From IMG/VR virus record IMGVR_UViG_2728369181_000002: a stretch of DNA of 29,192 nt; one strand, given 5' to 3'. Position 1 is the first letter of the stretch. Every line of letters begins with the position of its first letter. The notes beneath the pieces were generated by a model. The model saw nothing but the letters and a program-made list of their open reading frames with translations. It did no database searches and was not told where the DNA came from. The DNA is from a virus (Duplodnaviria > Heunggongvirae > Uroviricota > Caudoviricetes). The translations under genes and the position numbers were made by a program. Of this stretch, positions 26,477 to 29,192 are shown piece after piece.

Positions 26477-27118
26477 TCATGCGTTAGTTTCTCCACAACC
26501 AGAAGCAATCGACGCCACGACGCCCGGAGCTGCACACTCGCGGGCGTTACTCTTTTCCGGCGCACAAAAAACACGAAATAACAGTGTCAAATGCTCCTGC
26601 CACTTCGCCATTACTTGGTAGCTGTTCTCTTCGATTTGCTCACGCTCAGCCTGGTCAATAACTCCATCAGCAGTTGCCTTGCGTAAGTACTGGGAATGCT
26701 TGCCAATCCATTCTATTGACTCCATCAGCCGCTGATTAATGTCACCATTGTCAATGTCATCAATGACCACCAGCGGCACAAACACCCCATTACTACGACG
26801 GGCTATTGCATCCGTTACATGCCTGGTACCACTGGCATCCTGTAAAACCATGGCCCACTCAAGTGGAAAAATTTGATCCCCACCGCTACGCAGTCTGTTA
26901 TGCAATTGATCTTTTGCTGGGGTGATATCATCAGATTTATACAAACCAAGAATTTCTGCTGCTTCCTCATAGCCATGAGGTAAATCAGCAATCGTTCTTC
27001 GTATTGCTGCCACCAGCCATGCTGGCTGTTTATCAACTTTCCATTCAGGTTCTTTACCCACGTTTAAGTCCTCATATCTGTGGTTTCTGTAAATCGATTT
27101 ATCCATTAGATTTTTCAT
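26477..27118 (-). CDS. CII-position regulatory protein (YdaT/CP76-like, tentative)
   Basis: Start tentatively at ATG 27118 ([19 protein letters not shown]...); second gene of the early rightward operon, directly after the Cro-like gene; family assignment from memory. Confidence 0.5.
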
Positions 27119-27299
27119 AAAGCTCAGGTTTAAATGGCAACCGTCCGCAAGTTCTATATGCAGCCTCTGCTGCACGTCCTTTTGGAATTAACTGGCCAGG
27201 ACGGTTTCGCCACTGATAAACGGCTTCAGTTGTTATGCCGAAAAAAGCAGCAACTTTCTCAATGCTGCCGAAGTAGCTTTCGATATCGTCAGTCGTCAT
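27099..27299 (-). CDS. Cro-like transcriptional regulator (YdaS-type helix-turn-helix)
   Basis: 66-aa ORF, ATG at 27299..27297 preceded by GGAGGG; helix-turn-helix-like segment VAAFFGITTEAVYQWRNR; divergent from the CI-like repressor. Confidence 0.6.
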   Translation of the reverse strand: MTTDDIESYFGSIEKVAAFFGITTEAVYQWRNRPGQLIPKGRAAEAAYRTCGRLPFKPELYEKSNG

Positions 27300-27311: not shown

Positions 27312-27374
27312 CTAAGTTTTATTAGATGTTAATTATCAATCTATCTTAGGTCAATAAAAACTAAGATTACTTAG
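27312..27374. promoter_or_regulatory. immunity-region operator cluster (CTAAG-N4-NTTAG palindromes) with divergent promoters
   Basis: CTAAGTTTTATTAG at 27312..27325 and CTAAGATTACTTAG at 27361..27374, plus a CTTAG-N11-CTAAG inverted pair at 27345..27365; all lie in the 97-bp gap between the divergent Cro-like and CI-like genes. Confidence 0.55.
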
Positions 27375-27396: not shown

Positions 27397-28023
27397 ATGG
27401 AAACGGTTGGTCAGCGTATAAAAGCTCTGAGAAGGGTTACCAGAACGTCCCAGAAAGAATTGGGTAAATTTTGTGGAGTAAGTGACGTTGCTGTGGGGTA
27501 CTGGGAGAAAGACATCAATGTCCCTGGTGGGGAAGCACTTTCAAAATTAGCGAAGTTCTTCAATACGTCAATAGATTACATTCTTTATGGTGCTGAGTTT
27601 GAAGGCAAACTCGTCACAAACATGCGCAGAGTTCCTGTAATCTCGTGGGTGCAGGCTGGGCAGTTTACTGAGTGCAGGACAGCAGAAGTGTTTAGTGAAG
27701 TAGACAAGTGGGTAGATACATCATTAAAGATTGGTGATAACTCATTTGCATTGGAGGTTAAAGGCGACTCCATGACTAACCCTAATGGCCTCCCAACAAT
27801 ACCAGAAGGCGCAACAGTGATTGTAGATCCTGATGCAGAACCCCGGCATGGAAAAATAGTCATCGCTAGACTTGATGGAACAAACGAAGCCACAGTAAAA
27901 AAATTAGTTATCGATGGCCCTCAAAAGTTTTTAGTGCCATTAAATCCCCGGTACCCCAACATCCCGATCAATGGTAATTGCCTCATCATTGGTGTAGTCA
28001 AAGGAGTTCAATACGAACTCTAG
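27397..28023 (+). CDS. CI-like repressor (helix-turn-helix domain plus LexA/S24-type autopeptidase domain)
   Basis: 208-aa ORF with N-terminal HTH (QRIKALRRVTRTSQKELGKFCGVSDVAVGYWEKD) and C-terminal S24-like region (GDSMTNPNGLPTIPEGATVIVDPD...GKIVIARL); no obvious ribosome-binding site, as for PRM-type leaderless transcripts. Confidence 0.85.
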   Translation: METVGQRIKALRRVTRTSQKELGKFCGVSDVAVGYWEKDINVPGGEALSKLAKFFNTSIDYILYGAEFEGKLVTNMRRVPVISWVQAGQFTECRTAEVFSEVDKWVDTSLKIGDNSFALEVKGDSMTNPNGLPTIPEGATVIVDPDAEPRHGKIVIARLDGTNEATVKKLVIDGPQKFLVPLNPRYPNIPINGNCLIIGVVKGVQYEL

Positions 28024-28041
28024 CCCCCCTTTTCTCTAACC

Positions 28042-28073
28042 AAAACACCGAACTAAGAAAAGTTTGGTGTTTT
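28042..28073 (+). terminator. candidate terminator after the repressor gene
   Basis: 13-bp stem AAAACACCGAACT / AGTTTGGTGTTTT (one G-U pair) with 6-nt loop, followed by a T-rich stretch; begins 19 bp after the repressor stop. Confidence 0.45.
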
Positions 28074-28088
28074 CTCTTGCCATTAAAA

Positions 28089-28102
28089 CTAAGTTAAGTT
28101 AG
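28089..28102. promoter_or_regulatory. operator-like site CTAAGTTAAGTTAG (third copy of the CTAAG-N4-NTTAG motif)
   Basis: Same motif and AAAA-flanked context as the site at 27361..27374; sits about 105 bp upstream of the ClpX-ZBD-like gene. Confidence 0.45.
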
Positions 28103-28207
28103 ATTTTATATCAAAGATAACGAACAGGCAGGACGCCCACGAAGTAGCCGCCGGTGGCGTATGAATGACCGGATGATTCGTTAAATACTATGTGTAAGAG
28201 AGCGCAA

Positions 28208-28411
28208 ATGAACCGTTATTTCACATGCTCGTTTTGTGGCGCAAACGAGCTGCGGGCAAAAAAAATCATCGCCAAAGGCGGAAAAGATGAAGTTGCTATC
28301 TGCTCTGAGTGCGTAGTCTTGTGTGTCGGGGCATTAATCAATATCAGCACAACTATTCAGTTCACACCAAATGAGAATGCGCCTTTAGATGCGCGGAAAT
28401 CTGGAGGTTAA
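28208..28411 (+). CDS. ClpX N-terminal zinc-binding-domain-like mini-protein
   Basis: Start placed at ATG 28208, preceded by AAGAGAG; 67 aa, MNRYFTCSFCGANELRAKKIIAKGGKDEVAICSECVVLCVGALI aligns with the C4 zinc-binding domain of ClpX (CSFCGK...VYICDECVDLC) as recalled; no AAA+ ATPase domain follows. Confidence 0.55.
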   Translation: MNRYFTCSFCGANELRAKKIIAKGGKDEVAICSECVVLCVGALINISTTIQFTPNENAPLDARKSGG

Positions 28412-28500
28412 AGAACAAAATGAAAGTCCAGATTTTAAACAATAACTGTGAAGTCGTTTGGGCGTAAAACATGACCGCGCGTAGACCAAGGGAGGGAAAA

Positions 28501-28677
28501 GTGGGAATAGTTAGAAATCAAGCAGATATATTGAAAATCAGCTCTGAATTGCTTGGAGTTTTGAAAAGTGAGCTCACCGCACATGGCATCGAGCCCACTG
28601 ACGAAAATTTAAGTTGGGTTTTGTCGATTATTCAACAATCACTCAAGCCCAGCCTCAGCAAACTTTTTATCGAGTAG
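28501..28677 (+). CDS. hypothetical small protein
   Basis: GTG at 28501 preceded by GGGAGGG at 4-nt spacing; 58 aa; AT-rich; its 3' end overlaps a convergent small ORF. Confidence 0.35.
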   Translation: MGIVRNQADILKISSELLGVLKSELTAHGIEPTDENLSWVLSIIQQSLKPSLSKLFIE

Positions 28678-28830
28678 TGCTTCGAACTTATCGTAAAGCT
28701 TGCTTATGTCGTCTATCGGGTTTTCTGACGTACTGTAATTTTTATCTGATGTCATGGCAGCAGTCTGATATGCAGTGTGAGTCTTAACCGATAGTTGGAA
28801 TAAATAAAGAATTTTTTCTTCTTTGGTCAT
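28639..28830 (-). CDS. hypothetical small protein
   Basis: ATG at 28830..28828 preceded by AAGGAAA (MTKEEKILYLFQLSVKTHTAYQ...); 63 aa; AT-rich; convergent with and overlapping the 28501..28677 ORF. Confidence 0.35.
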   Translation of the reverse strand: MTKEEKILYLFQLSVKTHTAYQTAAMTSDKNYSTSENPIDDISKLYDKFEALLDKKFAEAGLE

Positions 28831-29192
28831 AACTATTTCCTTCTTGGCTATATGAAAACACCAAGATACCACCGAGCCTGAAGTGGTGAAAAGACAGGCA
28901 CATAACAGCTAAGTATTTTCAACCAGAGAGAATCCTTAGCGTTGTGGTGAATGCGGCTCAGCGCACGCGGGTTAAGGTTGAGGCTGACAGTCGACCTTCT
29001 GTGGATACCCACCCGCCTGGTGTGCAACCTTCGCCAGGCACCGGGAGGCACCCGGCACCACAACTTTATGCTGTGTGTAGTCCTGGCGGTACCAGCTTGT
29101 ACCATTGCTTCCGGCTGGTACCGCTCTTTTTACAAAACAGAGAAGAGCATCACCGGACGACGGGCTCATAACCCAATCCATCCGGGCGGCTG

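What the first reader, a model, noticed from the sequence alone, without database searches (positions are those of the whole stretch)
28024..28420. Stand-alone ClpX zinc-binding-domain mimic behind an operator-like site, directly downstream of the CI repressor
The 67-aa product of 28208..28411 is essentially a ClpX N-terminal C4 zinc-binding domain with no ATPase domain. It sits where lambdoid phages keep exclusion and early-left functions (the rexAB/PL position), behind a candidate terminator (28042..28073) and a third copy of the immunity operator motif (28089..28102). A free ZBD could compete with host ClpX for substrates or adaptors, for example to stabilise a phage protein normally degraded by ClpXP, or act as a decoy. 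Being operator-controlled would tie it to the lysogeny-lysis decision.
Basis: partly seen in the sequence, partly recalled or inferred. Interest (0 to 1): 0.7.

Follow-up and report, generated by a model that had tools for sequence, protein, structure and literature searches.

The report
Phage stand-alone ClpX zinc domain
A temperate E. coli phage makes, as the very first product of its repressor-controlled early-left operon, a 67-residue copy of the zinc-binding docking domain of the host unfoldase ClpX without the motor; its function is untested, and it sits just behind a widespread structured leader RNA that has no Rfam match.

Summary
ORF 28208..28411 encodes a 67-aa protein that passes Pfam's ClpX zinc-finger cut-off (39 vs 27 bits). 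It keeps all four Cys, is under purifying selection, and its model superposes on solved ClpX ZBD structures (rmsd 1.4-1.6 A). The terminator (28042..28073) and the third operator copy (28089..28102, overlapping a sigma-70 promoter) are also real.

The position was misread. The gene lies downstream of PL, so it is the first early-left gene (lambda's N position), not a rexAB-like lysogen gene.

RefSeq already names it 'ClpX C4-type zinc finger protein', and it belongs to PHROG 5259. No functional study was found. The decoy idea remains an inference. It is helped by published inhibition of ClpXP by free ZBD in trans, and weakened by only ~37% identity to host ZBD and a 3-residue insertion in the beta-hairpin.

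It shows strong covariation and has no Rfam match. It occurs in about a quarter of complete E. coli genomes, including K-12 e14, and in lambdoid, T5-like and KP34-like phages. It is not a put RNA by sequence or by model search.

The parts
27397..28023 (+). CI-type repressor (HTH_3 + Peptidase_S24), 208 aa
   Evidence: Pfam PF00717 E 1.6e-27 and PF01381 E 3.5e-9. Annotated 'LexA family protein' in RefSeq relatives.
27312..27374 (.). OR region with two exact operator copies (27312..27325, 27361..27374), overlapping the cro-side promoter
   Evidence: Minus-strand promoter-like site TTGACC-17-TAACAT at 27354..27326.
28042..28078 (+). intrinsic terminator closing the cI transcript (13-bp hairpin plus U-run)
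   Evidence: dG -15.6 kcal/mol, z -5.1. SfII carries an annotated terminator at the same place.
28053..28066 (.). weak second operator-like site (1 mismatch) in the terminator loop
   Evidence: Weak evidence, possibly chance.
28077..28105 (+). candidate PL promoter, TTGCCA-17-TAGATT
   Evidence: This sequence travels with this cI type, and a phage with a different immunity type (SfII) has a different sequence here.
28089..28102 (.). OL operator CTAAGTTAAGTTAG, overlapping the PL spacer and -10
28117..28186 (+). structured leader RNA, a three-way junction: P1 28119-28124/28177-28182, P2 28127-28129/28135-28137, P3 28151-28155/28168-28172, with an invariant 22-nt core GGCAGGACGCCCACGAAGUAGC
   Evidence: Alignments A2 and A6. 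95.4% of cells are paired, 10 of 14 pairs show compensatory changes, and slid controls reach at most 43%. Covariance model R1 scores 90.7 bits here. No Rfam match.
28196..28202 (+). Shine-Dalgarno-like AAGAGAG, 5 nt before the ATG
   Evidence: read from the sequence
28208..28411 (+). stand-alone ClpX-type zinc-binding domain protein, 67 aa: ZBD at residues 1-46, Zn ligands C7, C10, C32 and C35, disordered tail at 47-67
28420..28467 (+). 15-codon remnant (MKVQILNNNCEVVWA*) of a longer ORF that occupies the first slot after the leader in other contigs
   Evidence: (the ORF beginning MLKQVYEMKVQILNNNCEVVW... in 11 loci) and the sequence itself
28911..29133 (+). STnc100/PasD-like prophage sRNA ending in a strong intrinsic terminator (stem 29085..29124 plus U-run)
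   Evidence: Rfam RF02076, 45.4 bits against a gathering score of 47, E 2.6e-8. Hairpin fold -33.8 kcal/mol, z -3.8.

Best explanation
The interval is the head of the CI-repressed early-left (PL) operon of an SfV/mEp460/e14-type lambdoid prophage of E. coli. Shown: after the cI terminator comes a sigma-70 promoter overlapped by a copy of the immunity operator. A 70-nt structured leader RNA follows. The first translated gene is then a 67-aa free-standing ClpX-type zinc-binding domain (treble clef, four Cys) with a short disordered tail and no AAA+ module. Inferred: the protein is made at once on infection or prophage induction and is silent in the lysogen. The free ZBD, probably a dimer like ClpX's own, competes with the N-domain of host ClpX for what docks there. 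Those ligands include the adaptors SspB and RssB and N-domain-dependent substrates such as O-type replication initiators. This would transiently damp N-domain-dependent ClpXP proteolysis while leaving adaptor-independent degradation untouched. It would be a ClpXP counterpart of lambda CIII, which acts on FtsH from the same operon.
For: Domain and fold: Pfam 39 bits against a cut-off of 27. The only real PDB sequence hits are ClpX N-domains. The model superposes on 2ds5, 2ds6 and 2ds8 at 1.4-1.6 A.
Real gene: the four Cys are invariant in 22 aligned sequences. dN/dS on the 44-codon core is 0.08-0.30.
Expression logic: the terminator, promoter and operator arrangement. The gene is always the first one after the repressor gene on the same strand, behind at least 8 repressor types in 80 viral contigs.
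Exchangeable accessory gene: mEp460 has the same immunity region and leader but a different first gene. This points to a host-directed rather than a phage-specific partner.
Precedent: purified ClpX ZBD added in trans at 5-20 uM inhibits RssB-mediated sigma-S degradation by ClpXP (PMC7226468, Fig. 1d). The ZBD is required for lambda O degradation, and the same hydrophobic region around F16 and I46 binds lambda O, SspB, RssB and trigger factor (PMC7804408). F16 corresponds to the invariant F9 here. The window's replication protein has a lambda-O-like C-terminal half, judged by eye from the translation.
Against: There is no experimental or co-occurrence evidence for any ClpX link beyond homology.
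Identity to the E. coli ZBD is only ~37%. The Pfam score (26-45 bits in the family) is well below the ~50-70 bits per domain of other ZBDs.
The beta-hairpin loop carries a family-specific 3-residue insertion (AKGGKDE against AG-PS). The position matching I46 is Ala here and varies across the family.
The family has its own invariant residues (E14, A22-K23-G24, N45), which suggests a surface tuned to something other than ClpX's ligands.
ClpX-type ZBDs also occur as tandem repeats, fused to carbamoyltransferase, and on cyanobacterial sigma factors (PMC11119718). The fold is therefore a general interaction module.
The C-terminal tails come in at least four unrelated types, which a pure decoy would not need.
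Confidence: 0.4

Rival explanations
1. The ZBD is only a zinc-stabilised dimerisation or peptide-binding scaffold, used for a job unrelated to ClpXP. Examples would be binding FtsZ as a Kil-like division inhibitor, or presenting the variable C-terminal tails as the real effectors against host targets.
For: Tails after residue 46 fall into at least four unrelated types on a constant ZBD. ClpX-type ZBDs occur in tandem arrays and fused to unrelated enzymes and sigma factors (PMC11119718). The family has its own invariant surface residues. The same first slot after the leader holds Kil in mEp237.
Against: In the window's protein the tail is short and predicted disordered (pLDDT below 50 at 57-67). 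Frameshifted tail variants are common (P0004 on 38 contigs), so the tail looks dispensable here. The conserved part is the ZBD itself. No non-ClpX partner is indicated by any data.
Confidence: 0.25
2. The free ZBD pairs directly with ClpX N-domains, forming mixed dimers on the hexamer. This poisons or retargets ClpX rather than titrating its ligands.
For: ClpX ZBDs are obligate dimers: free ZBD cross-links as a dimer (PMC7226468, Fig. 2). The helix and hairpin that form the ZBD fold are retained in the model.
Against: At 37% identity, with a longer hairpin loop, a matching interface is not assured. Each ClpX ZBD already has a tethered partner at high local concentration. This could not be tested here because no multimer prediction was available.
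Confidence: 0.15
3. The ZBD protein is an N-like cofactor of the leader RNA, that is, an RNA-binding antitermination protein and its nut-like site.
For: 73 of 80 ZBD genes lie 80-89 nt behind the leader core. The gene occupies lambda's N position. There is a faint Elf1 zinc-ribbon hit (E 0.19).
Against: Only 12 of 131 leader-bearing loci have a ZBD as the first ORF. The leader also occurs in T5-like and KP34-like phages and in K-12 e14 without a ZBD gene next to it. The ZBD loci L009-L011 have no leader by covariance model.
Confidence: 0.05
4. The ORF is a decaying moron with no current function.
For: It is sporadic: 131 of 5426 complete E. coli genomes. Frameshifted copies and copies that have lost a Cys exist (P0004, P0008, P0132).
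Against: dN/dS is 0.08-0.30 across saturated synonymous divergence. The position and Cys ligands are conserved across Escherichia, Salmonella, Citrobacter and Enterobacter.
Confidence: 0.05

Closest known systems
N-terminal zinc-binding domain of ClpX (E. coli; PDB 1OVX, 2DS5-2DS8; Pfam PF06689)
   Same: C4 treble-clef fold with CxxC...CxxC ligands. The CSFCG, K-I-I-A and ICxEC motifs are kept. F16 of the ligand patch is kept. The model superposes at 1.4-1.6 A.
   Different: No AAA+ module. ~37% identity. A 3-residue longer hairpin loop. Ala or a variable residue at the I46 position. Family-specific invariant residues. Encoded by a phage and controlled by the phage repressor.
Phage modulators of host ATP-dependent proteases: lambda CIII (FtsH), T4 PinA and T7 gp4.5 (Lon). 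These are recalled from my own knowledge and were not tested here.
   Same: A small early phage protein. CIII is likewise a PL-operon product that competes at a host protease to stabilise phage proteins.
   Different: Those proteins are not copies of a host protease domain, none targets ClpX, and their functions are proven while this one is inferred.
Anti-adaptors IraD, IraM and IraP of E. coli
   Same: Small proteins that block delivery of sigma-S to ClpXP at the RssB/ZBD docking step (PMC7226468). iraM lies directly beside the e14 prophage.
   Different: They bind RssB and are unrelated in fold. They are host-regulated stress proteins, not ZBD copies.
HK022/HK639 put antiterminator RNAs (compared with the leader RNA, not the protein)
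   Same: About 70 nt, structured, and placed a few bases after the PL start in lambdoid phages that have no recognisable N gene (PMC9378689; HK639 annotation).
   Different: No sequence similarity. put is two tandem stem-loops, whereas this is a three-way junction. Model R1 finds nothing in HK022 or HK639. Antitermination activity is untested.
lambda N / nutL position
   Same: The first gene after PL, lying between a leader RNA element and the first strong terminator.
   Different: No boxA/boxB, and no similarity to N. The gene is optional among otherwise near-identical phages.

Membership tests
Pfam PF06689 zf-C4_ClpX (ClpX-type ZBD) | HMM score at or above the curated gathering cut-off | tested here: met
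   39 bits against 27, E 7.5e-10. Homologues score 26-45 bits.
Pfam PF06689 zf-C4_ClpX (ClpX-type ZBD) | Four Cys zinc ligands, CxxC...CxxC | tested here: met
   C7, C10, C32 and C35 are invariant in 22 aligned sequences. There are rare exceptions in a 30-sequence set.
Pfam PF06689 zf-C4_ClpX (ClpX-type ZBD) | Treble-clef fold that superposes on solved ZBD structures | tested here: met
   The predicted model against 2ds5, 2ds6 and 2ds8: TM 0.81-0.84 on the target, rmsd 1.4-1.6 A. This is a prediction, not a solved structure.
Pfam PF06689 zf-C4_ClpX (ClpX-type ZBD) | Zinc binding and dimerisation | not testable with these tools
   Needs metal analysis and SEC, AUC or NMR.
ClpX unfoldase proper | AAA+ ATPase module following the ZBD | tested here: not met
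   The protein is 67 aa. NCBIfam ClpX models match only positions 5-47, at 25 bits against a cut-off of 359.
ClpX-ZBD ligand-docking surface (functional mimicry) | Hydrophobic patch around F16 and I46 that binds lambda O, SspB, RssB and TF (PMC7804408) | tested here: inconclusive
   F16 corresponds to the invariant F9. I46 corresponds to A42, which varies (A/I/V/T/K). There is also a 3-residue insertion in the hairpin loop.
Lambdoid OL/PL operator-promoter | A copy of the OR operator sequence overlapping a sigma-70 promoter, downstream of cI and pointing away from it | tested here: met
   The sequence co-varies with immunity type.
Lambdoid OL/PL operator-promoter | Repression by the cognate CI | not testable with these tools
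   Needs a reporter assay.
put antiterminator RNA (HK022 type) | Conserved put sequence and two-stem-loop architecture | tested here: not met
   HK022 and HK639 put align with each other on visual comparison but not with this leader. R1 finds no match in either phage. The covariation supports a three-way junction.
put antiterminator RNA (HK022 type) | Position immediately downstream of the PL start | tested here: met
   P1 starts about 8 nt after the predicted start site. The same placement is seen after -10-like hexamers in ST64B, ZF40, pAEv1818 and PSTCR5.
put antiterminator RNA (HK022 type) | Protein-independent terminator read-through | not testable with these tools
   A crude count of terminator-like sites downstream of the leader showed no enrichment, which is inconclusive.
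Rfam RF02076 STnc100 (for 28911..29133) | Score at or above the gathering threshold | tested here: inconclusive
   45.4 bits against 47, E 2.6e-8, full-length match.

The most novel reading that the evidence does not exclude
The 70-nt three-way-junction leader at 28117..28186 is a new class of phage early-operon RNA, absent from Rfam, that acts in cis on host RNA polymerase. It would be a put-like, protein-independent antitermination or anti-pausing element with a different architecture. It is shared by lambdoid, T5-like and KP34-like phages and is still present in E. coli K-12 e14. The ZBD gene behind it would then be one of several interchangeable immediate-early cargoes, in this case a viral antagonist of ClpX N-domain docking.
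Probability: 0.3. Interest if true: 0.8.

Novelty: new variant of a known kind. Interest (0 to 1): 0.6.

Why it matters
If the free ZBD does compete at the ClpX N-domain, it would be, to my knowledge, the first viral factor aimed at the adaptor-docking platform of ClpXP. It would also be a natural tool for switching off adaptor-dependent proteolysis (sigma-S, SspB cargo, O-type initiators) without touching the motor. It would further tie ClpXP control to the moment of prophage induction in about 2% of complete E. coli genomes, including Nissle 1917.

The leader RNA matters independently. It has a 22-nt invariant core and is found in roughly a quarter of complete E. coli genomes and in three unrelated phage lifestyles. 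It sits where put RNAs sit in HK022. A copy in K-12 e14 makes it immediately testable with standard strains.

Tried and rejected
1. Literature: eight of the ten full-text searches were aimed at a described phage-encoded or stand-alone ClpX ZBD, or at the leader sequence (one search failed on a short term). None found a functional study. King 2011 on HK639 put RNAs is not held, so I compared HK639 and HK022 DNA directly instead.
2. Rfam: no hit at gathering thresholds. At E<=1 and E<=10 there was no family for the leader, only a chance miRNA hit.
3. put homology: rejected.
4. Hammerhead or other small ribozymes: considered because of the GAUGA and CGAA junction strands. The order of elements does not fit, and Rfam's ribozyme models gave nothing.
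5. A loop-core pseudoknot (ACGCC with GGCGU), suggested by the single-sequence MFE fold: neither supported nor excluded, because the core is invariant and the loop R position varies without compensation.
6. Terminator enrichment downstream of the leader: not seen with a crude scan.
7. PADLOC and NCBIfam: no defence family or named family beyond the ClpX N-terminus.
8. Species-representative genomes: only one ZBD locus was recovered, which was uninformative.
9. A second, putR-like copy of the leader in the right operon: none in the window.
10. Multimer prediction of ZBD homodimers or ZBD with the ClpX N-domain was not possible with the tools.

Full report
What the window is. The 29-kb window is a lambdoid prophage of the SfV/SfII/mEp460/CPS-53/e14 kind. 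Its right end matches Escherichia virus mEp460 and many E. coli chromosomes at 95-98% identity. RefSeq relatives carry the same gene order: Q, RusA, PerC/YfdN, an O-like HTH replication protein, YmfL, Cro, then a divergent LexA-family repressor followed by yfdP-yfdQ-yfdR. In the window, cro is 27099..27299 (-), a CII/CP76-like gene is 26477..27175 (-), and the S24-type CI repressor is 27397..28023 (+).

Checking the observation. The ORF runs from ATG 28208 to the stop at 28409..28411 and encodes 67 aa, with AAGAGAG five bases upstream.
- It passes Pfam's curated threshold for zf-C4_ClpX (39 bits against 27).
- Its only meaningful PDB sequence hits are ClpX N-domains.
- It belongs to PHROG 5259, function unknown.
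- An AlphaFold model built on 30 family members gives a beta-hairpin (20-23, 30-32) and a helix (33-49) with usable confidence, and a disordered tail.
- Foldseek ranks the E. coli ClpX ZBD crystal structures first, at 1.4-1.6 A rmsd. Unrelated zinc fingers follow only at E of about 2 or worse.
- The four zinc ligands are invariant in the 22 aligned sequences, which include the E. coli ClpX N-domain.
- Nei-Gojobori dN/dS over the 44-codon core is 0.08-0.30 between lineages with saturated synonymous change. It is therefore a real, constrained gene.

The hairpin at 28042..28073 is a good terminator (dG -15.6, z -5.1). The motif CTAAGN5TTAG occurs exactly three times in 29 kb: twice between cI and cro and once at 28089. 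The third copy overlaps the spacer and -10 of TTGCCA-17-TAGATT (28077..28105). The only other promoter-like hit in that 2.2-kb scan is the cro-side promoter, which is overlapped by the OR copies. This promoter-operator block is kept in relatives with the same cI and is replaced in SfII, which has a different cI. That is what one expects of an immunity-specific OL/PL.

Where the gene really sits. The order is cI, terminator, OL/PL, leader, ZBD. The gene is therefore not in the lysogenic cI transcript, as rexAB is in lambda. It is the first gene of the repressed early-left operon, which is N's place.

This position is a family property. In Enterobacter, Citrobacter and Salmonella contigs, the ZBD gene is the first gene after an HTH_3/Peptidase_S24 repressor on the same strand. 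Eighty viral contigs were added to these loci. In the 80 loci where the gene could be parsed, it follows repressors with at least eight different N-termini and lengths.

The gene is optional. mEp460 shares the immunity region and leader but has a 122-aa ORF in its place. A 15-codon remnant of yet another first-slot gene lies right after the ZBD stop, at 28420..28467. About 131 of 5426 complete E. coli genomes carry the gene, Nissle 1917 among them with a variant about 76% identical over its 5' part. The family is confined to Enterobacteriaceae in the large protein collections.

What the protein most likely does. Only homology and context are available. Three points favour a ClpXP-directed role.
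- The fold is specifically that of the ClpX N-domain.
- Free E. coli ZBD added in trans is published to inhibit RssB-dependent sigma-S degradation (PMC7226468).
- One hydrophobic patch of the ZBD (F16, I46) is published to bind lambda O, SspB, RssB and trigger factor, and the ZBD is required for lambda O degradation (PMC7804408).

F16 is the invariant F9 here, and the K-I-I-A strand and the ICxEC motif are kept. Because the gene is interchangeable among near-identical phages, its target is more likely a host protein than a phage-specific one.

Several points argue against simple mimicry.
- Identity to the host ZBD is about 37%.
- Pfam scores are well below those of other ZBDs.
- The hairpin loop is three residues longer.
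- The I46 position is Ala or variable.
- The family has its own invariant residues.
- ClpX-type ZBDs are also used outside ClpX: in tandem arrays, fused to carbamoyltransferase, and on cyanobacterial sigma factors (PMC11119718).
- The tails after residue 46 fall into several unrelated types.

I therefore hold the competitor/decoy mechanism at about 0.4. The main rivals are a ClpX-independent scaffold role and direct heterodimerisation with ClpX.

Most of the 'spacer' between the operator and the ORF (28117..28186) is a discrete conserved module. It is shared at 82-99% identity by over 1400 E. coli genomes and 53 phage records from ten genera, whatever the immunity type or downstream gene. It always lies shortly downstream of the repressor gene, at the head of the early-left operon.

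These gave 98 distinct variants. On 42 distinct sequences, a three-way junction (P1, P2, P3) is paired in 95.4% of cells. Compensatory changes occur at 10 of 14 pairs. All five P3 pairs and five of six P1 pairs covary, whereas slid controls pair at no more than 43%. P2 is invariant in that set, which was selected by the exact core. In the divergent Providencia PSTCR5 and Escherichia Minorna copies, however, its 3-bp stem is kept around a different loop.

Those two phages are T5-like (Demerecviridae) and KP34-like (Drulisvirus). In PSTCR5 the motif lies upstream of annotated genes, right after a strong sigma-70-type promoter.

Covariance model R1 finds one copy per locus searched and none in the window's right operon. 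It finds none in HK022, HK639, or the leader-less ZBD loci. It does find one in E. coli K-12 MG1655, between the e14 repressor gene ymfK and ymfJ, at NC_000913.3 1202108..1202178 on the minus strand.

Rfam 15 has no match. HK022 and HK639 put RNAs resemble each other but not this motif.

Its placement about 8 nt after the start site mirrors putL (PMC9378689). A strong terminator lies downstream in the same transcript, at 29085..29124. The closely related LLS/ST64B group is reported to lack an N homologue (PMC12315714). For these reasons a cis-acting polymerase-modifying role is my leading guess. It is untested, and a crude terminator census gave no support.

Leader and ZBD are separable. Only 12 of 131 leader loci carry a ZBD, yet 73 of 80 ZBD genes sit 80-89 nt behind the leader core. 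The ZBD is thus one of several alternative cargoes of this slot, not a cofactor of the RNA.

Comparison with what is known, and novelty. The domain assignment is not new. RefSeq calls the product 'ClpX C4-type zinc finger protein'. What is not in the searchable literature is any function for it, the recognition that it is the immediate-early PL gene, or the leader RNA. As a class, a small early phage protein that modulates a host protease is known (lambda CIII, T4 PinA, T7 gp4.5; from my own knowledge). A copy of the protease's own docking domain would be a new variant of that class. Overall interest is moderate for the protein alone and higher with the RNA.

Noticed in passing
window 28117..28186 (+): A 70-nt three-way-junction leader RNA with an invariant 22-nt core, strong covariation and no Rfam match. 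It lies between PL and the ZBD gene and is present in over 1400 complete E. coli genomes and many phages.
   Followed up: yes
L219 6109..6179 (-), which is NC_000913.3 1202108..1202178: E. coli K-12 MG1655 carries a copy of the leader RNA in cryptic prophage e14, between the repressor gene ymfK and ymfJ (71 bits with model R1). The anti-adaptor gene iraM lies just outside e14.
   Followed up: partly
L136 1481..1552 (Providencia phage PSTCR5); L137 1163..1234 (Escherichia phage Minorna): The same RNA motif occurs in a T5-like and a KP34-like lytic phage upstream of annotated genes. P1 shows compensatory changes and P2 has a different loop. In PSTCR5 it is followed by a boxA-like ACGCTCTTTAAAAA.
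   Followed up: partly
window 28911..29133 (+): An STnc100/PasD-like prophage sRNA (Rfam RF02076, 45.4 bits against a gathering score of 47) ending in a 13-bp terminator hairpin at 29085..29124. It is the first strong stop in the PL transcript after the ZBD gene.
   Followed up: partly
window 28420..28467 (+): A 15-codon remnant (MKVQILNNNCEVVWA*) of a longer ORF that is the first gene after the leader in other contigs. It marks a mosaic junction at the end of the ZBD cassette.
   Followed up: partly
L045, L026, L041, L019, L044 and others: the first ORF after the leader: In about 25 leader-bearing viral contigs the first ORF is a conserved 39-47-aa peptide (MIDFARKPxRQQAVxLNxxEVxIRxLCYxLAQKGxP), an uncharacterised alternative occupant of the slot.
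   Followed up: no
window 28471..28677 (+) and 28639..28830 (-): Two small overlapping convergent ORFs of unknown function (PHROG 15476, 68 aa; PHROG 2605, 63 aa). The minus-strand one is annotated in RefSeq relatives.
   Followed up: no
proteins P0019, P0025, P0026, P0031, P0039: Proteins made of 2-4 tandem ClpX-type ZBDs without an ATPase, and a ZBD-carbamoyltransferase fusion, are common among the nearest non-family hits. Their organisms and roles are unknown.
   Followed up: partly
ZBD homologues P0004, P0008, P0132; E. coli hits H214-H218: Some copies are frameshifted by a 1-bp deletion (a new 78-aa tail on 38 contigs) or have lost a Cys ligand. PGAP leaves several of these unannotated.
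   Followed up: no
ZBD homologues P0009, P0010, P0012, P0022 and P0121, C-termini: Several long-tailed family members end in a shared short motif (I/V-x-I/V-x-F-x-x-A-P-x-L/R-G). The window's tail (IQFTPNENAPLD) may be a compressed version of it. Its meaning is unknown.
   Followed up: no
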